From: a virus
Lineage: Duplodnaviria; Caudoviricetes
Reading direction: 5' to 3' (one strand)
Virus record (IMG/VR): IMGVR_UViG_3300010163_000006
Coordinates: 64,001 to 128,000 of that record
DNA length: 64,000 nucleotides
Shown here piece after piece: positions 8,173 through 57,400 of the stretch; position 1 is the first letter of the stretch; every line of letters begins with the position of its first letter. Made by a program: the position numbers and the translations under genes. The notes under the pieces are model-generated. The model saw only the letters and a list, made by a program, of their open reading frames with translations, ran no database searches and was not told where the DNA came from.

Positions 8173-9526
8173 CTATTCGGATACCCATCCTAACAAGGAT
8201 AATATCAATTATCTCAATGAGGGTAAAATAAACCATGGCGTACATGATCCAATGACGAGTTACCAATATAACGGATTATCTCCACGAGGACATGAACATG
8301 GTTATTCCTTATCACTTGCATGTCAGAGTGGTACGGATATGATGCATACTATCGGAAATGTAACTGCGGTTGCCTTACAATTTATACTTGATCTGTTTCC
8401 TTCAGATACATTTGCAACAGCATTTCCTTCAACTCAATTAGCACATAGACAACTGAGACATACACCTAAACAAATCCGTACACAACCGTATCCAATGTGT
8501 ATCGTTGCACCAAGAGTGTCTTTATCTGGTTTGGATAATAGATTGGCTGCTGGTTCGTTCGCAACAACAACTTGGTCCACCACGTCAAATCGTTTTCAGA
8601 ATCGCTCTGAGATGCCGGAGTTATTCTTCGACAAACAGAAGAAAATAATGTGGCGGGGAAAGATCAATCGTGTTGTTGTATACTTTGATTTTGTATTATC
8701 ATTTCAAAGTTATTCTGAACAACTCCGGTGGGCATCCTATCTGATCAATAAGATTCCAACAGATGGTGGATTCTTCGATATAGATACTGCCTTAGAGATG
8801 GCAATCCCTGATGGGTTCTTGGAAGAAACAGCACGGTATGCGGGTATACCTGTTAAAGATGAGAATGGAGATGTATCTGCGTTTGTGGACTATTTGAATA
8901 TGAATAGTACATTTCCTGTTTCGTACCGTTTTTCTTCAGGAAGACATACTGATGCATTCTATTCTTATTATATGGCCGCTCTGTTATGTAACATAGGAGA
9001 ATTAAACTACTCGAATGGAAGTAAGTCGAATAATCTCGTTGAATCGGATTATCCGATAACATTTACCATGAGATGTGAGTTTAATACAATAGGAATGTAT
9101 GATTTATGCGTTCCTAATCCTGGTCCTGTGCGGATACTCCAACCCAAGGAATATTCAATCGCAATTCCGATATTTTCTGATGTTTGGAATGAAAAGGATT
9201 TCCCTTTGATGTATGGCTGGAAAATACATGCACGACCAATCGTCAAAATGGACTGGGGAGAAAGAGAGATCTATATCGGTTCGACATTCGGTACAACCAT
9301 CAACAGAATGATTGATTATCATCTGGAACACCATTTGGATGTTGGACTGTTCATATCTGTTAAGCTTCGCGAAAACAGATGTTTAATAGATGATGGATAC
9401 TATATTGACTGGTCACGCCGGACATTGGTATTTGACAATATTAACTATGTTCATACATACCGTCTCATCATCGCGGTCAATAAACTGTATATTCAAAATA
9501 TGCTGAAAGACATGTATGAAAAATAA
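8165..9526 (+). CDS. Probable virion structural protein
   Basis: 453 aa, coupled to the baseplate-like gene, in a structural operon; no motif confidently assigned. Confidence 0.45.
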   Translation: MSNYSDTHPNKDNINYLNEGKINHGVHDPMTSYQYNGLSPRGHEHGYSLSLACQSGTDMMHTIGNVTAVALQFILDLFPSDTFATAFPSTQLAHRQLRHTPKQIRTQPYPMCIVAPRVSLSGLDNRLAAGSFATTTWSTTSNRFQNRSEMPELFFDKQKKIMWRGKINRVVVYFDFVLSFQSYSEQLRWASYLINKIPTDGGFFDIDTALEMAIPDGFLEETARYAGIPVKDENGDVSAFVDYLNMNSTFPVSYRFSSGRHTDAFYSYYMAALLCNIGELNYSNGSKSNNLVESDYPITFTMRCEFNTIGMYDLCVPNPGPVRILQPKEYSIAIPIFSDVWNEKDFPLMYGWKIHARPIVKMDWGEREIYIGSTFGTTINRMIDYHLEHHLDVGLFISVKLRENRCLIDDGYYIDWSRRTLVFDNINYVHTYRLIIAVNKLYIQNMLKDMYEK

Positions 9527-9547
9527 TATGTGAAGGAGATTTTAACA

Positions 9548-9820
9548 ATGGCTGATATCATTAAGAATGATTTTGATTTTGATTTTAGTTCAGACACATC
9601 GGCAGTGCAGGAAAGCTATGATGCTGCAAGCTCGGGATTCAAGGATCTTTTCGATGAGAAGTTTACATCTTTCAATCCTGAGGCAATTATATCCAGCGGC
9701 AATAACAAGCTTAACAGTGGCATGTTTGATATGGAGATCGAAAGTACGCCTGATATTTCATTCGGCTACAAGAAGAACGATACTCCGCTCGAACCCAGGA
9801 GACCCGGCAGATTCTTCTAA
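9548..9820 (+). CDS. Small acidic protein with AVQES motif
   Basis: AAGGAG RBS before ATG 9548. Confidence 0.55.
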   Translation: MADIIKNDFDFDFSSDTSAVQESYDAASSGFKDLFDEKFTSFNPEAIISSGNNKLNSGMFDMEIESTPDISFGYKKNDTPLEPRRPGRFF

Positions 9821-9855
9821 TCGGCGAGACAGTGCCGAAAACGTTACACCATAAA

Positions 9856-9891
9856 AAGGATGGCGGGGGATAATCCCCCGCCGAATCCTTT
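9856..9891 (+). terminator. Intrinsic terminator-like hairpin
   Basis: ggcgggggat-a-atcccccgcc stem. Confidence 0.65.
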
Positions 9892-9914
9892 CATTAAGGA
9901 GTTGAAATGTTTAA

Positions 9915-11423
9915 ATGGAATTTTCTACTATTATAGATGACATTGATAATGCTGTTTCTTCATCAGAAATAGATGTATTAATAGCAATTGGTGAAAGCTA
10001 TCAAAAGCTCCTTGACATGATGGAATATACTGACCTTGATGAAAGTATCATCCAGGAGACATGCCTGTTCATGGAAGCTGATGATTCTAATACAAACAAC
10101 GATAGCAAGTCATCTATCAAAGCTGTATTCAATAAAATAATTGATTTTATTAAAACTGCGTTTTCAAAGATTTCAGACATATTCCGAAAGAAGTTTATCA
10201 AGAATAAAGAATCGATGACGATTGTTGCTAACATGTTTACTATCATGGATAGTGTTAAACATGTAAAACAACCAAAACCCACAAAAGAATCTTACTATGG
10301 TGACGAAGATGACGAGGTTGTGCAAGAGGGACTGTTTAACAAAACCCCTCAAGAAAAACTTGCAGATCAGGCTCGTAAAAATATAAAGGCGGAAAATAAA
10401 CAAAAGGCGACTGAAGAAAAGAAACTTTCGAAAGAAAAAGCAAAACTCAACAAAGCCTTGTCAAAGGAATACAAGAGTGCTATTCGTAAGAGACAACTCA
10501 CGAAGAACGACATCAAGGCAATATCTGAACATATTGCGAATGTGTTGACTCCTGAAGAATTCAAAAACCTCCAGAACGCAATAAGTCAGTTTGAAAAAGG
10601 CCAACTCGAAAGAATCAGTAAGGATACTATTAAGAATGTTTTACTCATTGATACGTTGAGTAAACATCTTATGGAAATAAATGAAGTTGCTGACCGTATA
10701 TTGAAACCAGGTTACATATCAGGACATTCTGACAATGTTAGATATCTTAATAAAAAAGATATGAAAGTTGTTGAGAATATTAACAAACAAACAGAAAAAT
10801 CCAGCAGGGTTAAGGTTGAAAAAGATTTAAAACTCATGCGGAAGTTTGCAGAGACTCTTGGAAAAGAACTCAATGAGCTGTCTAAAACAGATAACTTCTC
10901 ATATGAGAACCTTAAACGAATGATGTATGGGGGTAATACCTTTGGAACCATGTTGGCATCAACAGCCAATTGTTTATGGAATATCGGAAAGCGTGCACCG
11001 AAGCTTGTCACCGATTTAAGTAAACATGGCGAAAAGCTATATATTGCTCATCATATGCTTGATGATTACATGATTGAAGATGACGCACTCCGCAAAGAAC
11101 TTGGTGTTGAACTTAACAAAACCATGAAGATTCTCAAAACGGTCGTACTCGATAATATTAAGGAAGAGACATATGGCTGGCAAGATGATGAAGCTTTCAA
11201 TGACAAATCCTATCGGGATCAGAATTTAACAACGTTGTGTTTGGGTGGTCCTATTACATTGAGTTTCAAACTTATAATGCTTGCAATTACAAGAGACCCC
11301 TCTGCGTTGGGAGTACCGGGTGATGTTGGTCCTGTGGATCTGGCATTAATGGGTGTTGCCAGATCATTGAATCCCACTGGTGTTAAATGGAAAGATATAC
11401 AGGGTAATGGAGCAACGTCTTAA
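9915..11423 (+). CDS. Probable internal head protein
   Basis: Acidic N-terminus with IIQET, FMEA and VVQEG motifs, then a K-rich helical region. Confidence 0.5.
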   Translation: MEFSTIIDDIDNAVSSSEIDVLIAIGESYQKLLDMMEYTDLDESIIQETCLFMEADDSNTNNDSKSSIKAVFNKIIDFIKTAFSKISDIFRKKFIKNKESMTIVANMFTIMDSVKHVKQPKPTKESYYGDEDDEVVQEGLFNKTPQEKLADQARKNIKAENKQKATEEKKLSKEKAKLNKALSKEYKSAIRKRQLTKNDIKAISEHIANVLTPEEFKNLQNAISQFEKGQLERISKDTIKNVLLIDTLSKHLMEINEVADRILKPGYISGHSDNVRYLNKKDMKVVENINKQTEKSSRVKVEKDLKLMRKFAETLGKELNELSKTDNFSYENLKRMMYGGNTFGTMLASTANCLWNIGKRAPKLVTDLSKHGEKLYIAHHMLDDYMIEDDALRKELGVELNKTMKILKTVVLDNIKEETYGWQDDEAFNDKSYRDQNLTTLCLGGPITLSFKLIMLAITRDPSALGVPGDVGPVDLALMGVARSLNPTGVKWKDIQGNGATS

Positions 11424-29088: not shown

Positions 29089-29122
29089 AAAAAATAATCC
29101 CCCAAATATTTGGGGGATTATT
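29089..29122 (-). terminator. Intrinsic terminator closing pentamer array 1
   Basis: aataatcccccaaa-ta-tttgggggattatt hairpin; the plus-strand A-tract is a U-tract on minus. Confidence 0.8.
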
Positions 29123-29130
29123 GTCTCTTC

Positions 29131-29586
29131 ACCAAGCATCACAAGACTGAACCAAGCCTCACCATGACAGAACTAAAATAAACTATACTTAGCTTCACCA
29201 TCACTCTACATGACGTTGCCTCACCAGTACCAAACAACACAATACCTGACAATATCATACCATGACGATACTTGGCTGAACCATCACGTTAATATACCCG
29301 ACACCACTCAACTTTACCAATACACCACCCACTTCAATACACCTGACAACACTCTACCAATACATGACGGGACTGAACGATGCCACACCAACACATTGCA
29401 TCACCCCACGAAACATGACAAAGCCTTACATTCACTTAACTCTGCAACACTATGCGTAACCTTAACGTTACTGTGCAACTCACAGCTATGCCTTTACTGA
29501 ACATCAGGTCATGTAATACTATATACATACCATCACATGACCTGACTACACCACACTTTAATACGCCACACTTCACTTTACCATGG
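29131..29586 (-). ncRNA. Pentamer-periodic array 1, (NN-NGY)n; candidate guide-RNA array
   Basis: Plus strand parses as accaa gcatc acaag actga accaa gcctc ACCATG acaga actaa aataa actat actta gcttc ACCATC actct acatg acgtt gcctc ACCAGT...; begins about 20 nt after the RAMP stop codon and ends at a terminator. Confidence 0.75.
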
Positions 29587-29605
29587 CTGTGATATTTGTG
29601 GCTGA

Positions 29606-30238
29606 TTAGTGTTCTGAAGCATTACCCCCGATTACATTTCCGTCGGCATCAAGCTCTTCCCAGACAAATTTACCCTTTCCACTGTTGCGCCACTGACCCG
29701 TTCCGTGGTAGAATCCATAGTCCAACCATTCACGAACGAGTGTTTCATCTTCATCCACCATACACAGTACGGTGAATTCGTTAGTGGAGCCGACCGGCAC
29801 GGTTTCTGAACATGCCAGTGAAACACGTTCACCCTGTGGTGTGTTGGCTCTTAACGGTCTCTGACACAACGTTATCTCACCATTAACGTTGATGACGGAT
29901 TTGCGTTCCTTGATAAAGATCAGACCGTCTATCTGTTTCTTAAACGCTTTGATCTTTGATGAAGCGGTACCTTTAACCTTTTTGAGGAAACTACAGGTCT
30001 CCTTGAAGTAACCTCGCCACTGATAGTCGTAAATGATCAGATTTCCGTCATCGTCTCTCGGGAATACGGTTGTTCCCTTTTCAACAGTCGGATCAACACC
30101 GACAGATGCTACCTCATCATCGATTGTGGTTGCATCGGGTGACTTCGAAGCGATGTAGCTTCTGTAGATTTCCTGGTCATTGGTTGCTGTGCCAAGCAGC
30201 TCCTCGATAAATGTTACGCGTACTCTGATTTCTTTCAT
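29606..30238 (-). CDS. Stand-alone Cas7/RAMP-superfamily protein
   Basis: N-terminal strand IRVRVTFIEELLG; IYDYQWRGYFKE (Cas7-like iPgss.kG.lr position); ETVPVGS; C-terminal glycine-rich loop GTGQWRNSGKGKF; AAAGGAGGT RBS before ATG 30238. Confidence 0.75.
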   Translation of the reverse strand: MKEIRVRVTFIEELLGTATNDQEIYRSYIASKSPDATTIDDEVASVGVDPTVEKGTTVFPRDDDGNLIIYDYQWRGYFKETCSFLKKVKGTASSKIKAFKKQIDGLIFIKERKSVINVNGEITLCQRPLRANTPQGERVSLACSETVPVGSTNEFTVLCMVDEDETLVREWLDYGFYHGTGQWRNSGKGKFVWEELDADGNVIGGNASEH

Positions 30239-30341
30239 AGAAATCAACCTCCTTTAGATAAATAATAAGTAGTTTATGGATATCTCATTTCTGATATATC
30301 CATAATAATTAAATATATTTCAAAAATAAGAAAAATAGAAA

Positions 30342-30361
30342 GTCCGGGGATAATCCCCGGA
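30342..30361 (-). terminator. Terminator-like hairpin after the 30378 gene
   Basis: ccggggat-a-atccccgg stem with an A-rich left flank. Confidence 0.65.
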
Positions 30362-30377
30362 CATGAAATTCTTCTAT

Positions 30378-30764
30378 TTATGGAGCCGGATATATGACAA
30401 AAGTTTTCAGACCTTTGATCTTGAACCCGCCGTCTTCTGTCGGTTCTCCGAACACTCTTGGGACGGCAATCAATTTGGGATTGTTTGACACAAATTCCTT
30501 GATCATTTTGTCAGATTGGTCAAATTCAACATCTATCCACCCACCAACAAATCCCATATCATAACCAGTTATCACTCCTATGATATCATTTATATCAACT
30601 CTCAAATGTAAAATATCTACTGTTTTACAGTCTGTTCCCTTCACAACCTTCATACCAACCAAACCATGTGTAGATATATGTTTGTATAAGTCTTTAAATG
30701 ATAGACATTCGTTGATTCTGACGGGAATGGTTTTCCTGATCTTCTTAGGGATCCTGACTTTCAT
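30378..30764 (-). CDS. Hypothetical protein between the RAMP gene and array 2
   Basis: AAAGGAG RBS before ATG 30764; track ORF starts at 30785. Confidence 0.6.
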   Translation of the reverse strand: MKVRIPKKIRKTIPVRINECLSFKDLYKHISTHGLVGMKVVKGTDCKTVDILHLRVDINDIIGVITGYDMGFVGGWIDVEFDQSDKMIKEFVSNNPKLIAVPRVFGEPTEDGGFKIKGLKTFVIYPAP

Positions 30765-30790
30765 TAATTTATCACTCCTTTCCATATAAT

Positions 30791-30829
30791 AAAAAATAAC
30801 CCCCGTAAGGTGGGAGGAGGTTATTTTTC
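30791..30829 (-). terminator. Terminator-like hairpin closing pentamer array 2
   Basis: aaaaaataacc-ccc...ggaggttattttt imperfect stem flanked by A/T tracts. Confidence 0.6.
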
Positions 30830-30845
30830 TTTAAGATATGTCGTT

Positions 30846-32372
30846 ACCATTACTCTACAAGACCCAACTTTGATGAACCATTACTGAACCAAACCGCGCT
30901 TTGCCTTACAACACTTGGCATCGCCGCACCGTAACACCGCTATACTGGGCTGAACTATGCCTTTACGCAACAGCACTATTCGACGCTACACCATAACTTC
31001 ACAATACCCACGCGGTACAATGCGTTACAGGACATAGCCTTTACTGGTACCATTCGACACCTTACCTGCACATGACATCGCCACCTATCACAACACAACA
31101 CCAATACAGAACAATACCGAACGCCACACTACCTTTACGATACATACGAACACGAAGCTCAATATTACTATACTTAACATTACCCGTTACGTGACCATGC
31201 GGCACCTGACCTTACCAAAACATTACTCTACGCCTCCTGGCTTTACCCAAACATTACGCTCGCAGCATTACTGCACCATCACAGCACCATACGTAAACTG
31301 ACTATACATTACCGATACAATACGAATCAGTACGGAACATCACGGAACCCATTACGTAACGTAACGCCACTTGACCGAACTGCACCCTCACAAAACTATC
31401 CCATACTGTACCATTAATGTACACTGCGTGACTAAACACGACTCTACCTGTACTTTACTATGAGCAACGTATCTCCGCTCCGCTTTACCTTTACTAAGCA
31501 TTACCTGGTATTGCTTAACCTTGCCTATACGATACCAAGCGTGGCATTTCTTCACCGCACCGTTTACTCTACATTACTCGACTTCACTCCAACATTACCC
31601 TCACATGGCATCATAAGACCACACTTTACCTTTACGACACCTCACAGAACAGGACCAAACCATGCCTGAACATTACCTTTAGATCACAATACGCGACGAT
31701 ACTTCACCTTACCATTACCAGAGAAAACGTCACCATACCGATACCGCAACCATGCTTCACCTTACTTAACCCTTACTTGGCTTGGCGGAACAAAACTATA
31801 CTATACCGTTACATAATCATACCGCACCCGGCCTTACCCATAACATCACAAAACTTTTCTGTACACTTCCTTTGCGGAAACTATGCCCGACACAGCATCA
31901 CGACACTATACCGGAACGCCACGTCACTCTACGGTACACCACCATGCTATACCAGCACAGTGCATTACTTGACATTGCTTTACCTTACCAATGCTGTACA
32001 TCACAATACCATTACGAAACAATACCAGACTGCAACTCACCGCGCATCACCTATGCTAAACATTACGTTCAAGACCCCGCTTTACTGAACCTTGACAAAA
32101 CCAAACAGTGCCTCACCGAAGCATTACTTGACATTGCTTGACCATACTTCACATCACCTTTACTGAACGTTATGAGACAAAGCGTCACCTCACAGCACCA
32201 TTACTTGGCAAAACTTCACGTGACACGACGATACTTCACCTTACCATTACCCAACATGACAATATGACACCATGCGTTGCCGTTAGCCATACATAACACA
32301 ACATGCCCTCACAACGCAATACCTTTACAGAACATAAAAGCTCAGCACTACACTTCACCGATACGTCACATA
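30846..32372 (-). ncRNA. Pentamer-periodic array 2, (NN-NGY)n; candidate guide-RNA array
   Basis: Plus strand ACCATT actct acaag accca acttt gatga ACCATT actga accaa accgc gcttt gcctt acaac acttg gcatc gccgc ACCGTA...; about 1.5 kb, starting right after the stop codon of the 32373 gene. Confidence 0.75.
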
Positions 32373-33677
32373 TTATTGTTGAGATAAAATGTCATAATAT
32401 CGAGAGACGTCAAATCCCAGTTTGTTTAGCTTGTCTATAAATTCCTTATAAGACTTCCGACCCAGATTTCGTATCTTCATTATATCTTCAGGAGCAGTAG
32501 ATAATATATCACCAATTGTACGGATTCCTCCGCATTTCAGGGAATTGAAAGTCCTGACACTTAAGTCGATTAAATCTATATCCGTATCCTCTGTAAATTC
32601 AGGTATCTTCCCATCAACATCGAGAGAAATTTCTTGTGTTCGCAGTACCCCATACTTAAGAATCATCAACGCTCTTTTGTCCGCGATAATAGCGTTCGAT
32701 ATTTCTTCAACTGATTGTCTGGTATCAATACCCAAAATATGGATCAGAAATTCGACAGTCTCGACGTCACAAAGGTTGTCATCGAGATATCTCATGTTGT
32801 ATATGTTTTCATACACACGTCTACCCAAGCGTGTAGAATTCTTTTCAACAAGATGCCGCAGCTTGTTTTTGTGTTCTCCATAAACGATAGTCCTTAGTGC
32901 TCGGGCTTCTATTTGTCTTATTCTATCCGGAGTAAGATTGTATTCATTTGCTATCTCTGTCAGAGTCATGTGATCAATAAACCTCTTGTCAAGTATATCA
33001 ATATCTCTAATTTGTCTAATTGATCTTTGAATAAAGAGCTCGATATCTGTAGTATCTGTTCCGATAATTTCAAGATCATCTGAAAAGAAATCCATACCGT
33101 CTACTGCTGCAGCGATTAAGTTCCATGGATAGAGACTATATTGCACGGGGTATATGTTGGATATCATCTTTTCCATCCGTGTGAAATAAGGATTCTCTTT
33201 GTAATGGTAGATCTTTGCACAAGCGATTATGTTCGCAAGTTCACGCACGGTCTTGTAGATGTGGTTGTTATTTATCACCATCTCAAGTAGGTCTGGTTCT
33301 AACCATAATCGTGAGATTGTGACGTCGGGAGAAAACTTCGATAAACGGATATCCTCAGTTTTCCAGAACTTTGATTTCAGCTTATCGGTAGGGATACTAA
33401 CCCTTTGGGATACTAATGTCATTCCTGTATGTTCACTAATTGATTTCGGAGAAACTCCTAATATATTCCTATAACCAAAAGCGATTAATGTGTCGTCACC
33501 GATGGTTGACAAAAGATCGTCAATCTTTTTCATGAGTTTATCCTCATTGATTTCTTCAATATCATTCAGAGACAATCCCGGGAGAAATCCCTTCTCGATC
33601 AATCTCGTTATGATTGTTTTCACATCGACACCGGCTTCGAATACGTGGTTGTTAATAACTAATTCGCTAAACTTCAT
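32373..33677 (-). CDS. Sigma70 region-4 HTH + RNA polymerase alpha-CTD fusion protein (putative transcription regulator)
   Basis: ILDKRFIDHMTLTEIANEYNLTPDRIRQIEARALR (sigma region 4) and IDLIDLSVRTFNSLKCGGIRTIGDI...IMKIRNLGRKSYKEF (alpha-CTD). Confidence 0.85.
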   Translation of the reverse strand: MKFSELVINNHVFEAGVDVKTIITRLIEKGFLPGLSLNDIEEINEDKLMKKIDDLLSTIGDDTLIAFGYRNILGVSPKSISEHTGMTLVSQRVSIPTDKLKSKFWKTEDIRLSKFSPDVTISRLWLEPDLLEMVINNNHIYKTVRELANIIACAKIYHYKENPYFTRMEKMISNIYPVQYSLYPWNLIAAAVDGMDFFSDDLEIIGTDTTDIELFIQRSIRQIRDIDILDKRFIDHMTLTEIANEYNLTPDRIRQIEARALRTIVYGEHKNKLRHLVEKNSTRLGRRVYENIYNMRYLDDNLCDVETVEFLIHILGIDTRQSVEEISNAIIADKRALMILKYGVLRTQEISLDVDGKIPEFTEDTDIDLIDLSVRTFNSLKCGGIRTIGDILSTAPEDIMKIRNLGRKSYKEFIDKLNKLGFDVSRYYDILSQQ

Positions 33678-33769
33678 AACTTTCTCCTTCCGAACCTATC
33701 ACAGGTTCTGCTTATTAATTATTTTAAGTATGAATAATATGAAAGCAACCACTTTCTTCTTATTCGCAT

Positions 33770-33784
33770 AAATAATATATATTT
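33770..33784 (-). promoter_or_regulatory. Phage promoter motif AAATATATATTATTT
   Basis: Exact motif copy about 90 nt upstream of ATG 33677. Confidence 0.65.
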
Positions 33785-33964: not shown

Positions 33965-34040
33965 TGGTTGGGATGCCCAGATTCGAACTGGGGGAATTAC
34001 GGGGTCAAGGCCCGCCGCATTACCGCTTTGCTACACCCCA
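33965..34040 (-). tRNA. tRNA-Gln(TTG)
   Basis: Cloverleaf: acceptor TGGGGTG/CATCCCA, anticodon arm GCGGG-CCTTGAC-CCCGT, TTCGAAT T-loop, encoded CCA. Confidence 0.88.
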
Positions 34041-34113
34041 ATTTACTTCCCTTTTGTATATTGGTTGCCTTTAAACTTATGACCCATTGCGTTTTGACGA
34101 TACCACAATATTT

Positions 34114-34188
34114 TGGTGACGCGTATGAGGATCGAACTCACGTCACCGCCGTGAAAGGGCGGTGTCTTAACCACTTGACTAACGCGCC
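34114..34188 (-). tRNA. tRNA-Glu(TTC)
   Basis: Acceptor GGCGCGT/ACGCGTC, anticodon arm CCGCC-CTTTCAC-GGCGG, TTCGATC T-loop, CCA. Confidence 0.93.
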
Positions 34189-34192
34189 AGTT

Positions 34193-34267
34193 TGGAGGTC
34201 CCGTCCAGAGTTGAACTGGAGATCGTGGTGTTGCGGACCACTGTCTTAACCTCTTGACTACGGGATC
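34193..34267 (-). tRNA. tRNA-Cys(GCA)
   Basis: Anticodon arm GTGGT-CCGCAAC-ACCAC, U73 discriminator, TTCAACT T-loop, CCA. Confidence 0.87.
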
Positions 34268-34395
34268 ATGTGGATTAGATGTGTATTTTTAATGGACCGT
34301 TATATTCCACATTACCTCCTCCGTTGATACAGAGCTGCAGTGTGTCAACTTCTGGTGTTCTCGGATTTTAAACTAATGATACACATAATCCACTT

Positions 34396-34473
34396 TGGTG
34401 GGATATGCTGGATTCGAACCAGCGTCATAACGCCGTGCACAACGTATACTTTTCCCCGCTAAAATAATATCCC
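34396..34473 (-). tRNA. Degenerate tRNA, anticodon undetermined
   Basis: Perfect acceptor GGGATAT/ATATCCC, T-arm GCTGG-TTCGAAT-CCAGC and CCA, but irregular anticodon arm. Confidence 0.55.
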
Positions 34474-34476
34474 ATT

Positions 34477-34552
34477 TGGTGGATGGTGATGGAGTTGAAC
34501 CACTATTCTCATTATCGTCGTGATAATGCACTTTCCTTAAGCTACATGCGTC
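34477..34552 (-). pseudogene. Pseudo-tRNA
   Basis: T-loop GGTTCAACTCC and CCA present, CATTATC/GATAATG hairpin, poorly paired acceptor stem. Confidence 0.45.
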
Positions 34553-35058
34553 ATTTTATATTTATACGTCTGCCAAGGGATCTACATACGGTGTACATGG
34601 AAATAGATCAAATATCCCTTTGTTCCAGTCATCAAACAGATCGTCTTTACTGATTGTCGGATTGCCTTCCCTTGCCATGATTGTTGAAAGAGAGCAATTG
34701 GTACACTATACGCATCCTATTACATATTTCTTATCTCCTTTTGACACTTCGCGTGTTACATATTTTACTTTATCGGCAGAATTACACCGAGGACATGGAT
34801 TGATATTCATGTATGCCATCCTTTACCAAGACATCTTTATGTAGTATGAATTTAAAAATATATAATAAACAAAATGTGTATCGGGGCTCGGGAAGCGACC
34901 CCTCCTCCTCACTCAATGCATAGCCATGGTACATTGAGGTCTGGTGTTCTCATTAACTTTAAACTATTAACACATTTCATTTATTATTGTAATCGCCAAC
35001 CCAGACGATCACCACATTCGCCACACCTGATGGTCTCCCTATCGAATGCATTCCTCGT

Positions 35059-35143
35059 TGGTGACTGAGGTGGGACTCGAACCCACATACCTTTCGATAC
35101 GGGTACTTGAAGCCCGCGCGTCTGCCAATTCCGCCACTCAGGC
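35059..35143 (-). tRNA. tRNA-Leu(CAA)
   Basis: GCGGAATTGGCAGACGC D-arm, loop TTCAAGT, long variable arm, GTGGG-TTCGAGT-CCCAC, CCA. Confidence 0.88.
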
Positions 35144-48926: not shown

Positions 48927-51900
48927 ATGTTTTACCAAGAAGCTGCAGTAGATCTTTCACGCGGTACGAATTTCTTACCTCAAAGGACGAGATACCGTTT
49001 ACCGATGCAGAAGGCTGATACTTCGATATATTTGTTGTCAAACTCATTCGAATATGATATCGAAATGATAAAAAATATGCCAACCCCTAAATTGGATTAT
49101 AAGAATATTATAATTCCGTATCGTGTAATGGATAAGATCGGTGTTAAACCATTTCGATACAATAGTTCCATGAACGACTTCAATCGCAAAGTTTCTTATA
49201 TTCTCAAAAAGAAACTTATGCCGAATGTTAATCCATTGAGATTCCCTTATCCGAAAACAATCAAGGATAATCTTTACATATCAATGTCAGAGATTATCCC
49301 GATGGTCACACCATTCATGAGAACGTTTTCGAAACAATACATCCAAGAACACATCTTTGATTTGTTTAACAAAGTGATGGGCTTCTTTAATTTTTCAAAA
49401 AATAAGATTCTCATTATCGACATCCGGCATTACAAGATCTATCAAACATTAACTCTCGATACTTTCATGTCAGACCTGATAAATGCATTATTGACTGCAT
49501 ATATCATGAATGATCCCGCTAAGATCAAGAAGCTTGATTATGTAATAATCTTTAGAGCCCCTGATGCTGATTACAAGTTTGATTTATCGTTGTTCGAGAA
49601 ACGCGATGTTCAACGGATGAAAGCTATGTTACGAAAAATAGGAGTACCTTCTGAAATGACTGCAACTACATCCGAAGAAGCGGGTGAAAGTTTTGATTCA
49701 TTTACGAAGAACTCCGAACCAGAATTACCGGATCTTGCTAATATTAATGACGATGCTGATGATTCGGAAGATAAACCTGAGGTAGACGAAGAGGTTAAAA
49801 ACCTTCAAAAAGTGAATAACAATGAGACTAAATCAATCAAAGACACGATCAGTCAATTGTCTACTCAGTATGGTAAGGTAAAAAACGATGACAAAGCACC
49901 TGATGAAAATCGGGAATTATATAATGTCAAAACAATGGATATCAACGCCCAGTTGATAAAACGGATTAATCCTGCAACCGAAGTTGTTTCGAATTATAAG
50001 AAACTCTCTGATTCAATGGTTGCTGGTGGTTCTAATACCGTTGAAAAAGACATAATGAAAGATGCTGCAAAGACGATGTCTTCGGAAGTTGAACCGTCGA
50101 ATGTAAAAACTGTTATGAATGCAACATCATCAGCACGAGAGCGTGAGATACGAGAAAAACTTGGTCAGGTCAAATTGAACAATGTAACATTCAACACATT
50201 GACATCAATTACAGATGTTCCTAAACCTAAGCCGGTCAGACCAAGAAATCTCACAACCACAAATCCAGGAGCTCTTCATGGTTCATCGTTTGCACACATT
50301 GCAGAAGAGTACGAAGACAAACTACTCGACAGAGACATAGTTGCAACATTCATGAATTTCTCCAAACTTCCGGATGGTTTCTATGTTACCAACGTTGAAG
50401 TGACAGACATTTCAACGGTAACAAGTTTGATGAATAACTGGAAGGTTACACTTAAAAACAAAGAATCTGATCGTCAATCAATTATAAACATCAGAGTCCC
50501 CCGAGTTATCAATGGTCGATTCTATAACAACGGTGTTTGGTACAACATCGGAAAACAAGACTTCCCAATACCGATTCTGAAAATCAACAAGAAAACTGTT
50601 ATGTTGACAAGTAACTATAACAAAATTACCTGCACAAGATACGACACAAGATCGCTTGTTGACCTTGGTATGTTGGTTAAAGTAATCGATAAATTGACTG
50701 ATGATAATGGAAAAAATAAATATGTAAGAGTTGGTAATTCTTCCAATACCAATTCCCGATATGTATCGACAATTGAGTACGATGAGTATGCAAGGAAGTG
50801 GGTTCATTTCATTAACAAGGAAGCTAATTTACAAATATATTTTAACCGTTCACAATGTGACAAGGCATATTCGTTTGTTACTGTACAACCAAATGAGTTC
50901 TGTTGTGGAATGATAAATCAAGTTCCTATTATCCTGAATACCGATACTGGATTAACAAGAGACGGTAACACTATAACGGATACCATATTAAAGACCTTAC
51001 CGGAAGACATAAGGAATGCATATCGTAAACAGAAACCAGGTAAGATGTCAATGTATTCTGAAATCACTATAGGAGTTACAATTCCCCTTGGAGTTGCTAT
51101 TGCTGCATGGGAAGGAATGGGTTCTTTATTAAAGAAGAGCGGTGCAAAATATCAGTATGTTGATAAGAACTTTGATGACATACGATACTTCGTTATGCCA
51201 TTTAAAGATAAGAATCTTGCGATCGAAAGCTCCGTTGCGAACCAGTTGATCTTCAACGGTTTCTATCGAATTAATACGAAATCATACATGGCATCGGAAT
51301 TCGAAACACCGATTATGAATTCAAATTCGATCTATGTTGATATATTCAACCAGTTATTCTTCAAGCAATATTCACAGCTTACAACGTTTATCACATATTA
51401 TAATTTCTTCGTTGATGCAATAACGGCGGATGTATGTGATCACTATCATATTCCAAATGACATTGCCGGAATGTTGATATATGCCTCTAATCTGTTGGCT
51501 GATAACAATCATACTTCAGAAAACAATGCTGCATTGTACAGACTACGCTCATCGGAAATTATTCCGGCCATCATACATTACAGATTAGCGTTTGCAATAT
51601 CAAAATACAACAATAGTGTCGGATCCAAAACAAGAGGGCATTCAATCGCATTCAACCCGAATGAAGTAATGAATGAATTGTTAGCGGTTAATAATGTAGA
51701 GCCGATGTCTTCATTAAATCCTATAAATGAATTACATGCCAGAGAGAATGTAACAAAGAAAGGCTTCAAGGGAGTTAACTCAGATCGTTCATACACACAG
51801 GACAAACGTACCTATGAGGATTCCATGATTGGAAAGATGGCATTATCATCTCCTAATAATGGAACCGTAGGCGTTACACGTCAGCTCGTTGCGGATCCAA

Positions 51901-53198
51901 AGATTGAATCTGTTCGTGGTTATACATCAACAGATGGCCCTGAATCCGATTTCAATGATCTCCAATTGGCATCTTTCTCGGAATTACTCACACCGGGAAC
52001 AGTCACCAGAGACGATGCTATCCGAACTGCAATCGCAACATCCCAAACATCGCACATCGTATCAACCGAAGGCGCTCAACCAGTATTGGTATCCAATGGT
52101 GTTGATGAGATTGTTCCTGCGTATTTGACGGAGGAATTTTCGTATGTTGCGAGAGAAGATGGTGAAGTAATCGACATGAATGAGGATTACATCATTATCC
52201 AATACAAGAGTGGAAAAAAGAAAGCGATTAATATCAATCACAAACAATCATTCAATTCTGGCTCAGGTTTCTTCGTTGATAACAAACTCACATCTAATGT
52301 TGAGATGGGTGACAAGTTCAAAGAAGGAGATATCCTTGCATATCATGAGAAGTATTTCTCAAAGGATTGTGATGGTATTGTCAGAATGAACATAGGACCT
52401 CTTGCAAAGGTTGCATTCGCTGGATTGTATTCAACATATGAAGATGCTGGTCTTATCACAACCAAGATGTCTAAGAAACTTGGCACAAAGTATTCAATGA
52501 AACAACAAATCAAAATCAATGCAATGGATGATGTAGAAAGTATCGTCAAGATTGGTGATGAGGTTGAGGTCGGTGACCCATTAGTTGTATTCGGCATGGG
52601 TGGTACAGGAGATAAGGCAGTAGACAATTTCCTTAAATCATTTGGTAAGGATTCATCTGATGATGTCTTAAACAAAGCAAAGAGGGTAATTAAAGCCAAG
52701 AATGCAGGAACTGTTGTTGACGTCAAAATGTATACGACCAAGAGTATGGATAAACTGTCACCATCATTATTCGATATCTTTGATAAGTATTTCAAAGATA
52801 ACGTTAAACGTCGTAAAATATTGGACAAACATGACAAAACTAATTCCGTGTATAAAATGGATACGTTGTATTCATTACCAACAGAACCTCTCAAGGGTAC
52901 AACGATCAAGGGTATAACATGTGATGTGTTGGTTGAGATATTCATCGAACATGGTGATGAAGCATCTATTGGTGACAAGCTGGCCATCTATGGTGCATCA
53001 AAACAGGTTCTTTCGGAAGTAATACCTGAAGGACTGGAACCGTACTCCGAAACACGACCCGAAGAAGAAGTAAGTATCTTCGTTGCTCCGAGCTGTATCT
53101 TGAAGAGAATGATCCCATCACTCATTATCACTGCCTCGGCGAACAAAGTACTTGTCGAGCTAAAACGCAAAGTGAAGGAACTGTGGGAACAAGGATAA
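48927..53198 (+). CDS. Phage multisubunit RNA polymerase beta-like subunit (probably virion RNAP)
   Basis: beta motifs LNPINELH, SSPNNGTVG, DDAIRTAIATSQTSH, YEDAGLIT, IGDKLAIYGASKQV; long N-terminal extension beginning MFYQEA. Confidence 0.88.
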   Translation: MFYQEAAVDLSRGTNFLPQRTRYRLPMQKADTSIYLLSNSFEYDIEMIKNMPTPKLDYKNIIIPYRVMDKIGVKPFRYNSSMNDFNRKVSYILKKKLMPNVNPLRFPYPKTIKDNLYISMSEIIPMVTPFMRTFSKQYIQEHIFDLFNKVMGFFNFSKNKILIIDIRHYKIYQTLTLDTFMSDLINALLTAYIMNDPAKIKKLDYVIIFRAPDADYKFDLSLFEKRDVQRMKAMLRKIGVPSEMTATTSEEAGESFDSFTKNSEPELPDLANINDDADDSEDKPEVDEEVKNLQKVNNNETKSIKDTISQLSTQYGKVKNDDKAPDENRELYNVKTMDINAQLIKRINPATEVVSNYKKLSDSMVAGGSNTVEKDIMKDAAKTMSSEVEPSNVKTVMNATSSAREREIREKLGQVKLNNVTFNTLTSITDVPKPKPVRPRNLTTTNPGALHGSSFAHIAEEYEDKLLDRDIVATFMNFSKLPDGFYVTNVEVTDISTVTSLMNNWKVTLKNKESDRQSIINIRVPRVINGRFYNNGVWYNIGKQDFPIPILKINKKTVMLTSNYNKITCTRYDTRSLVDLGMLVKVIDKLTDDNGKNKYVRVGNSSNTNSRYVSTIEYDEYARKWVHFINKEANLQIYFNRSQCDKAYSFVTVQPNEFCCGMINQVPIILNTDTGLTRDGNTITDTILKTLPEDIRNAYRKQKPGKMSMYSEITIGVTIPLGVAIAAWEGMGSLLKKSGAKYQYVDKNFDDIRYFVMPFKDKNLAIESSVANQLIFNGFYRINTKSYMASEFETPIMNSNSIYVDIFNQLFFKQYSQLTTFITYYNFFVDAITADVCDHYHIPNDIAGMLIYASNLLADNNHTSENNAALYRLRSSEIIPAIIHYRLAFAISKYNNSVGSKTRGHSIAFNPNEVMNELLAVNNVEPMSSLNPINELHARENVTKKGFKGVNSDRSYTQDKRTYEDSMIGKMALSSPNNGTVGVTRQLVADPKIESVRGYTSTDGPESDFNDLQLASFSELLTPGTVTRDDAIRTAIATSQTSHIVSTEGAQPVLVSNGVDEIVPAYLTEEFSYVAREDGEVIDMNEDYIIIQYKSGKKKAININHKQSFNSGSGFFVDNKLTSNVEMGDKFKEGDILAYHEKYFSKDCDGIVRMNIGPLAKVAFAGLYSTYEDAGLITTKMSKKLGTKYSMKQQIKINAMDDVESIVKIGDEVEVGDPLVVFGMGGTGDKAVDNFLKSFGKDSSDDVLNKAKRVIKAKNAGTVVDVKMYTTKSMDKLSPSLFDIFDKYFKDNVKRRKILDKHDKTNSVYKMDTLYSLPTEPLKGTTIKGITCDVLVEIFIEHGDEASIGDKLAIYGASKQVLSEVIPEGLEPYSETRPEEEVSIFVAPSCILKRMIPSLIITASANKVLVELKRKVKELWEQG

Positions 53199-54485: not shown

Positions 54486-57400
54486 GTGATTATGAATTAC
54501 AATAAATGGTTCTATAATCAACATAAGTATCTGAAAAACATCCGCGATAACTCTGAGGGTTTTAATGATACTAAGTGGGTTACTATCAACAAGCGTTACC
54601 AAATACTTGACGATATGAAATCCGAATTGCTTTCACAAGGACTATTGGTTCATGGTAACAATACTGGATTTGATAAACTTATTGATTTGATGGGTAGATC
54701 TAATTATACATTCGAAGATATCAATGATTCTTTAATTGATACATACAGGGTTTCATTGCATTTTGCAATGAGTAGAAACCTTGTTAATACTCATGCGGTT
54801 ATGTTTCATTGTACCAATATGGATACCAAGAATGTTACTGCGGAGAAGTTCACTCATTACAGAATAATTGATGCGCCTTTTAATCAATTACACTTTGGAC
54901 ACCGTGATGAGTTCATACGTCAAAAGCTCCAGGAAATGCATAATATCAGTAATGGTAATTATGTTGATATGCCCCGATTTAATTCCACTCAATTCACCAA
55001 GATCCTTGATTTCTCAATCATATGCACAGTCAATGGTTATTTTTGTAACGATTGTAAAGTTGCTATTGATGATAAAGGTTTTAAATTCAAAGTAGGATGG
55101 CCTTATGCTTCGGATGTTGATTTCATTGTATACAAATTGGATCATGGTAGAATGATTTCCAATAACATATCACCAGATTATGTTAAGAAGGGATTGATTC
55201 CTTATGACGTACTTGGTGGTGTTGGTAAAGAGATGCTCGGATTAAAATGCATCATAAATGTGTTTGATCCTTTGTTTATCAAGACAACTTCATCTGTTCC
55301 TAACTTCGGTATATTCACCGAAAAGGGATTGGAGATAAGGAACTTACAAAGAGCCACATCTGATATGATTGATAGATTGTCGTCATCAAATGTGACCGTT
55401 GATGTATATGCCTTGAAATTCTTTCATGAAATACCCAACTTGTATCCCGCTATCAATTATTACGATATAATGGATACAAGGAATGTGTATGACGAAAAGA
55501 GCGAAAGCATTAAAACAACCGAGGGACATAACGTTGTCGCAACACCATCGAAGAACATAAACAAACTTGAAGTATGTACACCACCGATATGTCTTGATCG
55601 AGATGTATCATATTCATTTGATATCATCACAAGGTGTTTATCCATGTATGATGACATGATGTCATATGAAAGTGATTTAATCCGTGTTGGACAAGAATTG
55701 CTATATGGCAACCAAGATTCCTTCATGGATACATTCAAACCTATATTGCAGAAAATCTATTCTGGATTGTTGTCAATGTATAAGATCTATGAACAAGGAA
55801 GCATCATAACTTCATTGATTGAACCAGAACAACTTGGGCTGTTCTCCGACCTTTTGTCAAAAGTCCATAAGATTTCAAACATGACAGACTTCCGTCATTC
55901 TCAGAATTATTCCTTCGATGAATTATACGGAGAAAATTATAGAAACACGGTTAAGACTATAACAGACCCATTCAGGAATACAGCATTACTACCATTCGCA
56001 TGCATGAAATCAATCAAGAACAATTTCTTTGTTGATAACAACACAACTCGATTCAATCGACCAATATCGGAGCAGTGTTTCATTGCACTCCGATACCATA
56101 CAAATGATGGTTGTTGGTTGTTTGATTATCCGGACATCAAACATTTCCATGGGATCGGAAACACATTCTATGTCGATTCGAATCTCAAGGGTGATGAGAT
56201 ATTCAAGTTCTTTGTTCTTTACAGTGATACCGAAGCTCCTGATGAAAAGGATATTGAACATATGGATCTTAATACCGTATTGGATTTTGATTTGTTTTCT
56301 AAGGAAATAGAGAAACATATCGGGATGATTCGTTACTGGGATGCGGAATGTCGGTTGATGAAGTTATCAAAAATCATGTATAAGAAATACAATGATGAGA
56401 CATGTGTTCAAGTATTATCAAAGATTCTTAAACGGAAAATATCCGGAGATAACATTCTCAAATTATATCCTTCTGATATAAACTATGAAGAATCAAATGT
56501 CTCTTCAGATAGTTGGGAATCTTATGATGAAAACACTGAACGAGGTCCTTTCTCAATAAATTTCCTGTTTTATACCCTCTCTTTATTGAATAATAATGAG
56601 GATAAACTCCAATCGTATTTCTATAGATATCTTACTCATAATAAGTATCATAATAGATATACTGATATTGATATCTCGTCCATCATTGACAATGAGAGAT
56701 ATCCCATCAGTTATTCTCAATACACAATATCTCCATCAAGAATCCCCGACAGTTGTGCGAAACCGGATGTAAAGATATTCGCATATTATGGATTACCATT
56801 GATATTGGATTCAAAAGGAAGTAATCTGTATGAACCGTACCGATATGTCTTGAACGTTTATGATCCAGATACTAAGTATCCCATGATATCCGAAAACGAT
56901 ATTGATGGGTCTTTCTATGTTCAATATGACAATATCACAGATTATGCTGGACGGGTTGTTTCTTATCATAACAATATTCAAATCGGACATCTGATGACAT
57001 TATACCTGACAGATCTTTACAACTACATTTCTGAATTACAGACAAATTACAAAACAACATTCAACCAGTCAACCGTGATTGAGTCTGCTATAAACACAAT
57101 GAACGAACGAATTTCAACCATCAGAACACATATACTTGATAACGGACTTGATGATATTGATGGGGTTTCATCTTTTGGTAATGCTGTTGATATCGTTATC
57201 AATGATAATGAATTTATTCGTAAATTGAATGAAATGAAATCATTGATTGATTCAATCGATGTAATCAGGTATAACAATACAAATTCATCAATTCGCGTGT
57301 TCATAAATACGCATGTACTTGGTACGTTAAAACGTGCGTACGTTAATTTTGGTTTCAATAACAATATTAACAAACGTGCACGTATGCTGTACATACACCT

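What the first reader, a model, noticed from the sequence alone, without database searches (positions are those of the whole stretch)
29089..33784. Candidate non-CRISPR RNA-guided system: solitary Cas7/RAMP-like gene with two 5-nt-periodic non-coding arrays
Seen: a 210-aa protein (29606-30238, minus) carries the RAMP glycine-rich loop GTGQWRNSGKGKF and a Cas7-like QWRGYFKE helix. About 20 nt after its stop begins a ~455-nt array that ends at a terminator. A second ~1.5-kb array with the same grammar lies upstream (30846-32372). On the transcribed strand both read (NN-NGY)n: a conserved G-pyrimidine every 5 nt separated by variable bases. No cas1/2/3/5/6/10 or repeat-spacer array is in the window. 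Established: RAMP/Cas7 proteins polymerise along guide RNA with a fixed footprint (6 nt per subunit in Cascade). Inference: each subunit binds one pentamer through its conserved bases and displays the variable bases, so the target is specified by a non-contiguous code. A plausible role is nuclease-free binding or repression of competing phage or host DNA. From memory, this resembles recently reported phage 'VIPR'-type systems (RAMP + GGY/NN repeat RNAs); that needs checking. Here the first triplet base is degenerate, which may mark a distinct variant.
Basis: partly seen in the sequence, partly recalled or inferred. Interest (0 to 1): 0.97.

Follow-up and report, generated by a model that had tools for sequence, protein, structure and literature searches.

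The report
Phage VIPR guide-RNA system, YNNNG arrays
This 156-kb uncultured phage carries a VIPR system, a CRISPR-related RNA-guided DNA silencer first described in 2026 preprints. It has one small Cas7-like gene and two arrays holding about 53 short guides written in five-base units, so it is a new example of a known kind. One extra hint is that all three free bases of each unit spell codons.

Summary
On the minus strand, 40 of 41 runs of at least four in-phase G-pyrimidine pentamers in the window lie in 29123-29581 and 30846-32358. The rest of the 155.7-kb genome has only isolated runs of 4-5 pentamers.

The 210-aa protein folds with high confidence as a single-RRM Cas7-type RAMP (Z about 13 to type VII Cas7 and Csm3). 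It aligns end to end with the SUSP1 Vipr clade, though weakly (hhalign E 8e-5).

Of 165 homologous loci, 132 carry at least 8 in-run pentamers on the same strand within 3.5 kb of the gene, concentrated in the first 500 nt after the stop codon. 133 yielded parsable YNNNG units.

No Cas1, Pfam RAMP or CRISPR-like array is in the genome.

This is a VIPR system (bioRxiv 10.64898/2026.04.26.720920, .720927, 2026.10.15.759431). That work already mentions YNNNG repeats and 'staggered' arrays. This scan has noted VIPR on other DNA before: 152 notes in at least 120 genomes.

Details added here:
- One extra G every 5-8 pentamers cuts the arrays into units of 5n+1 nt.
- The residues that read the first G in SUSP1 Vipr are replaced.
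- The three variable bases behave as in-frame codons, and stop codons are halved, so the third variable base may also carry target information.

No natural target was found.

The parts
29606..30238 (-). vipr gene: 210-aa minimal RAMP (single RRM, thumb, G-loop G179-F191)
   Evidence: ORF and ribosome-binding site. AF2 model pLDDT 90. Foldseek and VIA hits to Cas7/Csm3, Z up to 12.9. hhalign to the SUSP1 Vipr clade, E 8e-5.
29123..29581 (-). vrRNA array 2: 13 units of at least 4 pentamers, 88 pentamers (77 perfect YNNNG), directly after the vipr stop codon
29093..29122 (-). intrinsic terminator closing the vipr + array 2 transcription unit
   Evidence: 13-pair stem followed by a T run
30846..32358 (-). 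vrRNA array 1: 40 units of at least 4 pentamers, 289 pentamers (261 perfect YNNNG), lying in the 3' region of the 434-aa gene
30800..30817 (-). terminator-like hairpin plus T run closing array 1
32373..33677 (-). 434-aa protein with sigma-70 region 4 and an RNA polymerase alpha-CTD-like domain. Array 1 follows its stop codon. It is a DNA-binding candidate accessory, but it is not conserved next to vipr in relatives.
   Evidence: Pfam, PHROGs, no homologue in 165 related loci
30378..30785 (-). 135-aa ORF between array 1 and vipr, with its own terminator at 30342-30362. Function unknown, and it is not a conserved neighbour of vipr.

Best explanation
This is a phage-encoded VIPR system. It belongs to the branch that uses YNNNG pentamers in 'staggered' arrays.

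Proposed mechanism:
- Two minus-strand transcripts (434-aa gene + array 1, and vipr + array 2) carry about 53 guide units. Each unit is one G followed by 5-8 YNNNG pentamers.
- Vipr protomers polymerise along the RNA, one per pentamer.
- Each protomer holds the constant G and the following pyrimidine and displays the variable bases.
- The filament binds double-stranded DNA with a step of three base pairs per pentamer, in register with codons, and blocks transcription of genes of rival mobile elements or of the host.

Shown here: the RAMP fold, the array anatomy, the gene-array linkage across relatives, the absence of cas genes, and the codon-like statistics of the variable bases.

Inferred from the published SUSP1 work: filament assembly, DNA binding and silencing.

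Unknown: how the RNA is cut at the extra G, and what the targets are.
For: Fold. The AF2 model has pLDDT 90. The top matches are all Cas7-type RAMPs (Foldseek E 1e-7; VIA Z 12.1-12.9 over 146-167 residues). An HMM of the family hits type VII Cas7 at E 7e-5 through the G-loop.

Link to a proven Vipr.
- SUSP1 Vipr was located (L002:28474-29061) and equals PDB 36pp.
- Profile-profile alignment to its clade gives E 8e-5 over 183 collinear columns.
- W178 and R179 of SUSP1, which contact G2 and Y3, are kept here as W183 and R184.
- D177 and H17, which contact G1, are Q182 and a gap or Thr here. This matches the loss of the first G in the repeat.

Arrays. They are specific to the two sites and to the gene's strand. 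My scan recovers the four published SUSP1 vrRNA sites as a positive control.

Linkage across relatives.
- 132 of 165 related loci have at least 8 in-run pentamers on the same strand within 3.5 kb of the gene.
- These pentamers peak in the first 500 nt after the stop codon.
- 682 units were parsed in 133 loci. 586 have the single-G lead, and the logo is the same.

Variation. Among related guides, differences fall on N2-N4 (151, 152 and 188) and not on Y1 or G5 (38 and 17).

Codon register.
- The base composition of N2, N3 and N4 equals that of codon positions 1, 2 and 3 of the phage's own ORFs.
- Triplet use correlates with codon use (rho 0.72, against 0.3 in the other frames).
- Stop triplets number 8 against 18.3 expected here, and 101 against 189.5 in relatives.

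Context. The record is a virus record with terminal repeats. It encodes DNA polymerase, ligase and RNA polymerase beta. There is no Cas1, Pfam RAMP hit or CRISPR-like repeat.
Against:
- No natural target was found. Local databases show no excess over shuffled guides. IMG/VR, metagenome and 802-genome scans gave chance-level numbers of hits.
- Sequence homology to SUSP1 Vipr is weak (hhalign probability 58-62%).
- The solved Vipr structure is not in the fold library, so no direct structural comparison was possible.
- No conserved vap gene lies beside vipr.
- The SUSP1-type invariant 3' tail is absent.
Confidence: 0.87

Rival explanations
1. Same VIPR machine, but a different code. In this YNNNG branch the base that replaces the first G (N4) also reads the target. 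Each pentamer would then specify three contiguous target bases (a whole codon), rather than two bases plus a skipped wobble base.
For: - Given N2N3 = TA, N4 is depleted in A/G (odds ratio 0.52, p 3e-5).
- Given N2N3 = TG, N4 = A is depleted (odds ratio 0.61, p 0.006).
- Both tests were run on de-duplicated units, and control dinucleotides show no such effect.
- N4 composition equals that of codon position 3.
- Reverse-complement stops are depleted only in the frame that again puts N4 at the wobble position (76 against 124 expected).
- The residues that bind G1 in SUSP1 are replaced.
- In the local database, contiguous NNN decoding gave 1 perfect and 6 one-mismatch 18-mers (the six are three distinct targets), against 0 and 0 for shuffled guides.
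Against: - The codon signal would also arise if guides are copied from coding DNA and N4 is simply inherited without pairing.
- The local NNN hits are few, and four of the six one-mismatch hits are one A-rich site repeated in near-identical loci.
- Among IMG/VR hits to the two-base pattern, N4 matched the skipped base only at chance level.
- Changes between related guides are not enriched for synonymous ones (69 of 383).
Confidence: 0.35
2. The particle targets RNA (messenger RNA of rivals), as type III and type VII Cas7 complexes do, not DNA.
For: The closest solved folds are RNA-targeting Cas7 proteins: Csm3, type VII Cas7 and Cas7-11.
Against: - In this window the stop-free frame is the sense frame (8 stops against 18.3 expected; the antisense frame is not depleted, 26 against 20.9). 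Most guides therefore have the polarity of the mRNA and could not pair with it.
- Published VIPR binds double-stranded DNA on either strand.
- No nuclease or Cas10-like partner is nearby.
Confidence: 0.04
3. The RAMP gene is an orphan relic and the pentamer tracts are unrelated simple-sequence DNA, for example protein-binding or structural repeats of the phage genome.
For: No expression data. No conserved accessory gene.
Against: - The family has 5675 close homologues and 1680 clusters at 50% identity, with invariant G-loop residues.
- Arrays sit on the gene's strand just after its stop codon in most of 165 loci.
- Variation is confined to the N positions.
- The tracts are bounded by terminators.
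Confidence: 0.03

Closest known systems
VIPR systems with YNNNG repeats and 'staggered' vrRNA arrays (bioRxiv 10.64898/2026.04.26.720920, methods and legend of fig. S18)
   Same: A lone minimal RAMP gene in a virus. Same-strand arrays of five-base units with constant G and Y and hypervariable bases. Units abut with a one-base offset and have no long tail. No cas genes.
   Different: The figures and tables of that paper are not held, so I could not check which of its seven types this clade is, or whether this protein is in its set. This locus has about 53 guides in 2 kb. Three quarters of them follow a sigma-like gene rather than vipr. No vap gene is recognisable.
Type II VIPR of Escherichia phage SUSP1 (Vipr = ALH47069, PDB 36pp; vap1; four vrRNAs)
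   Same: About 200-aa RAMP with a G-x-G-x-W-R...G-x-F loop. Arrays on both sides of the gene on its strand. Guides as short as six units work there. Targets are read in codon register.
   Different: SUSP1 uses GGY-NN, vrRNAs of 9-16 repeats, each with an invariant 3' tail, and has a vap1 partner. Here the first G is free, units are 5-8 repeats set off by one extra G, and there is no tail and no vap1. Sequence similarity is detectable only by profiles (E 8e-5).
Cas7 backbone subunits of type III (Csm3/Cmr4) and type VII CRISPR-Cas
   Same: Best structural matches (Z 12-13). RRM core, thumb and glycine-rich loop. Polymerise along a guide RNA with a fixed footprint.
   Different: Those use a 6-nt footprint on CRISPR RNAs, sit in cas operons beside CRISPR arrays, and target RNA. 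Here there is no cas gene and no CRISPR array, the period is 5 nt, and the guides have sense polarity.

Membership tests
VIPR | Vipr protein: small single-RRM RAMP with thumb and glycine-rich loop | tested here: met
   AF2 pLDDT 90. Cas7-type matches at Foldseek E 1e-7 and VIA Z up to 12.9. The G-loop is invariant across 69 homologues.
VIPR | Sequence or structural homology to an experimentally proven Vipr (SUSP1, PDB 36pp) | tested here: inconclusive
   hhalign of the family profile against SUSP1 Vipr: E 1e-4, probability 58%. Against the SUSP1-clade profile: E 8e-5, probability 62%, 183 collinear columns. 36pp is not in the fold library.
VIPR | Same-strand tandem pentamer arrays flanking vipr, with constant GGY or a related consensus and hypervariable bases | tested here: met
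   (YNNNG; G 93%, Y 96%). Variation lies on the N positions. YNNNG is listed in the paper.
VIPR | The gene-array association is conserved among homologues | tested here: met
   132 of 165 loci have at least 8 in-run pentamers within 3.5 kb on the gene's strand. These peak 0-500 nt after the stop codon. Units were parsed in 133 loci.
VIPR | No CRISPR array and no cas operon; viral genome | tested here: met
   No Cas1, Pfam RAMP hit or CRISPR-like repeats in the 155.7-kb record. It is an IMG/VR virus record with terminal repeats and phage replication and RNA polymerase genes. Other cas families were not searched singly.
VIPR | vipr-accessory (vap) gene next to vipr | tested here: not met
   The 135-aa and 434-aa neighbours have no homologue in 165 related loci. 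The only common neighbour class there is heterogeneous HTH proteins, which are absent from this genome. The paper says 'typically', so this is not strictly defining.
VIPR | Target read with a 3-nt step (two read bases plus one skipped wobble base) | tested here: inconclusive
   The codon register of the variable bases supports a 3-nt step. No natural target above chance was found.
VIPR | vrRNAs are expressed and co-purify with Vipr; binding silences transcription | not testable with these tools
This needs wet-lab work.
CRISPR-Cas type III / VII (Cas7 subunit) | Encoded in a cas operon beside a repeat-spacer array | tested here: not met
   The window ORFs around the gene show no cas domains.

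The most novel reading that the evidence does not exclude
In the large YNNNG branch of VIPR, the position that is the first G in the published GGY motif has been freed and now reads the wobble base. Each five-base unit would then spell a whole codon, and the guide would recognise an uninterrupted stretch of target DNA (three of five guide bases read, no skipped target base). The single extra G every 5-8 units would be the punctuation that separates or phases the guides.
Probability: 0.35. Interest if true: 0.75.

Novelty: new member of a known kind. Interest (0 to 1): 0.42.

Why it matters
VIPR is a newly described way of recognising DNA with RNA, and it is proposed to predate CRISPR.

This locus shows that a very large gut and rumen phage clade uses the relaxed YNNNG form, with dozens of short guides per phage. 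The clade has thousands of homologues.

The locus also gives concrete, testable leads on two open points.
- How 'staggered' arrays are punctuated: by one extra G, giving units of 5n+1 nt.
- Whether the freed base takes part in target reading. If it does, that would change how natural targets are predicted and how such systems are programmed.

As a finding in itself it is a further example of a published kind, not a new kind.

Tried and rejected
- **Plain Fourier period-5 power over 200-nt tiles.** It did not single out the arrays, because the phase slips by one base every 26-41 nt. I replaced it with in-phase run counts and a phase-tracking parse.
- **Targets in local data.** I searched the phage's own genome and 165 related loci under eight decoding rules. 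There was no excess over shuffled guides for the two-base rules. There was a small, unconvincing excess for contiguous three-base decoding.
- **Decoded peptides against six-frame translations.** No excess.
- **IMG/VR scans of four long guides.** They gave 0, 2, 13 and 47 exact hits, which are chance-like numbers. The skipped base agreed with N4 at chance level for the two scans with enough hits.
- **Metagenome scan of the 10-unit guide.** Four hits, about the number expected by chance. One lies in frame in the recB gene of a recBCD operon (L237). No other guide hit that contig above control.
- **The same pattern in 802 Bacillota and Bacteroidota genomes.** One hit, against two for the reversed-pattern control. 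The recB lead is therefore rejected as unproven.
- **The 135-aa ORF and the 434-aa sigma-like gene as vap candidates.** Neither is conserved beside vipr in relatives.
- **Direct structural comparison with solved Vipr (36pp).** Not possible, because the entry is absent from the fold library.
- **Alignment-based locus search with the 69-sequence alignment.** It failed for lack of a conserved stretch. It succeeded with a closer set.
Full report
**What is there.** The minus strand of window 29089-33784 holds three transcription units, each closed by an intrinsic terminator:
- a 434-aa gene (33677-32373) followed after about 12 nt by a 1.5-kb non-coding tract (32358-30846), with a terminator at 30817-30800;
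- a 135-aa ORF (30785-30378), with a terminator at 30362-30342;
- a 210-aa gene (30238-29606, good ribosome-binding site) followed after 24 nt by a 0.46-kb tract (29581-29123), with a terminator at 29122-29093.

**The periodicity is real and specific.**
- On the minus strand, 40 of 41 runs of at least four in-phase 'G then pyrimidine' pentamers in the 64-kb window lie in the two tracts.
- These hold 225 pentamers, against at most 17 in shuffles.
- The whole 155.7-kb genome has nothing comparable elsewhere.
- A phase-tracking parse gives 377 pentamers with the logo Y(T78/C18)-N-N-N-G(93%). The three middle positions carry 0.2 bit or less.
- Strict GGY is not the motif; only one such run exists.

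**Punctuation.** In 51 of 66 phase segments the next segment starts after one extra G. The tracts are therefore strings of units of 5n+1 nt: 36 nt 13 times, 31 nt 10 times, 41 and 26 nt 5 times each. Most units hold 5-8 pentamers. The junction reads roughly G-TAA-N-G-G-TA. This is why a plain Fourier test failed. About 53 units have four or more pentamers.

**The protein.**
- Pfam finds nothing, but the family is huge: 5675 homologues by word search and 1680 clusters at 50% identity.
- With a 69-sequence alignment, AlphaFold2 gives pLDDT 90.
- Every top structural match is a Cas7-type RAMP: type VII Cas7, Csm3, Cmr4 and Cas7-11. Foldseek gives E 1e-7, and VIA gives Z 12.1-12.9 over 146-167 residues.
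- A family HMM reaches type VII Cas7 (E 7e-5) and Csm4 through the glycine-rich loop.

**The literature.** They are described in three 2026 preprints from one laboratory.
- They consist of a minimal RAMP (Vipr) in phages, flanked by vrRNAs built of GGY/NN pentamers.
- One protomer binds each repeat, the GGY is flipped out and held, and the NN is displayed.
- The particle binds double-stranded DNA, skipping every third base, in register with codons.
- It silences transcription of rival elements.
- The methods list alternative NNNGG, YNNNG and NNNNG repeats. [quoted passage not shown]

**Link to a proven Vipr.**
- I fetched phage SUSP1 and located its vipr gene at L002:28474-29061. This was confirmed as PDB 36pp, 'SUSP1 Vipr protein'.
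- As a positive control, my run scan recovered the published layout of one upstream and three downstream vrRNAs.
- Profile comparisons of my family with SUSP1 Vipr and with its clade are collinear over the full length but weak: E 1e-4 and 8e-5, probability 58-62%.
- The alignment is informative at the G-loop. SUSP1 W178 and R179, which hold the second G and the pyrimidine, are W183 and R184 here, and both are conserved.
- D177 and H17, which read the first G, are Q182 and a gap or Thr here. This fits the loss of the first G in the repeat. The residue mapping is an inference from the alignment, not a structure.

**Relatives.** I gathered 165 loci with homologues from IMG/VR viral contigs, metagenomes, and gut and rumen MAGs, mostly Oscillospiraceae and other Clostridia.
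- 132 have at least 8 in-run pentamers on the gene's strand within 3.5 kb.
- These pentamers are concentrated in the first 500 nt after the stop codon.
- Parsing them gives 682 units in 133 loci, 586 with the single-G lead. The logo is Y(C63/T27)-NNN-G(96%).
- The unit format is therefore a trait of the whole clade.
- Among related guides, differences fall on the three N positions (151, 152 and 188) and rarely on Y or G (38 and 17).
- Even the 80%-identical relative shares no guide with this phage.

**Context.**
- The record is an IMG/VR virus of 155,671 bp with terminal repeats.
- It encodes DNA polymerase, NAD ligase and a multisubunit RNA polymerase beta subunit.
- It has no Cas1, no Pfam RAMP hit and no CRISPR-like repeats.
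- The two neighbouring genes (135 aa; 434 aa with sigma region 4 plus an alpha-CTD-like domain) have no homologues beside vipr in relatives. No vap gene can be named.

**A new observation: the variable bases look like codons.**
- The base composition of N2, N3 and N4 matches codon positions 1, 2 and 3 of the phage's own long ORFs almost exactly.
- N2N3N4 triplet frequencies correlate with codon usage (rho 0.72 here and 0.61 in relatives, against 0.2-0.3 in the other two frames).
- Stop triplets are halved only in that frame: 8 against 18.3 expected here, and 101 against 189.5 in de-duplicated relatives.
- In relatives, reverse-complement stops are depleted only in the frame expected for antisense guides (76 against 124).
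- This supports the published 3-nt, codon-registered reading.
- It also shows that most guides of this phage have sense polarity, which argues against mRNA targeting.
- The effect also involves N4 itself. After TA, N4 avoids A/G (odds ratio 0.52, p 3e-5). After TG, it avoids A (odds ratio 0.61, p 0.006). Control dinucleotides are flat.
- Either N4 pairs with the wobble base, or guides are born as copies of coding DNA and N4 is a passenger. I cannot tell which.

**Targets.** None was established.
- Local searches under eight rules showed no convincing excess.
- Exact scans of IMG/VR with four long guides, of the metagenome collection with the longest guide, and of 802 bacterial genomes gave chance-level counts.
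- A 20/20 in-frame match in a recB gene (L237) is recorded as a lead only.

**Verdict.** This is a genuine VIPR system of the YNNNG/staggered kind, so it is a new member of a known kind. This scan has already noted VIPR on other DNA (152 notes in at least 120 genomes), including other readings of this same stretch. The punctuation rule, the residue changes at the G1 pocket and the codon statistics of N4 are useful additions. The codon statistics of N4 are the only part that could turn out to be new biology.

Noticed in passing
window 29504-29546 (minus strand): A strong hairpin (16-bp stem, -27 kcal/mol) lies inside array 2, right after its first, unusually long unit (11 pentamers). Its 5' arm is made of pentamers 8-10 of that unit. 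The other array tiles are unstructured (mean z about 0). It could be a tail-like cap or a processing signal. It was not seen in five relatives.
   Followed up: partly
window 32373-33677, 48927-53198 and 54486-61406: The phage encodes a multisubunit RNA polymerase beta subunit. A 2306-aa ORF next to it was not examined. The 434-aa protein fuses sigma-70 region 4 with an alpha-subunit C-terminal-like domain, and three quarters of the guides sit in that gene's 3' region.
   Followed up: partly
L237:3950-3979 (metagenome contig Ga0315905_10006823): The 10-pentamer guide at window 30879-30929 decodes to ADQVKKALSN. It matches 20 of 20 read bases (and 6 of 10 third bases) in frame in the recB gene of a recBCD operon of a 38% GC bacterium. 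The number of database hits equals chance expectation, so this is a lead only.
   Followed up: yes
window 32199-32244 and 31677-31712; 32117-32157 and 31953-31988: Pairs of guides share their first four pentamers (decoded KEIR, differing by one third-position base) or an internal block (decoded NQN). This looks as if they were variants aimed at alleles of one target.
   Followed up: no
L010:1050-3088 and 8755-10236; L006:3083-4637: In related phages, the vipr gene sits near two AcrVA2-like genes and a TnpB/Cas12f-like gene (L010), or a PemK-toxin-domain protein and a sigma-70 region 2 protein (L006).
   Followed up: no
window 33968-35143 (minus strand): A cluster of four tRNA genes lies just upstream of the locus.
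   Followed up: no
window 30378-30785: The Atlas model of the 135-aa ORF resembles a domain found in phage prohead protease (S77/S80) family proteins (TM 0.63-0.66 by query). No DNA-binding signature was found.
   Followed up: partly
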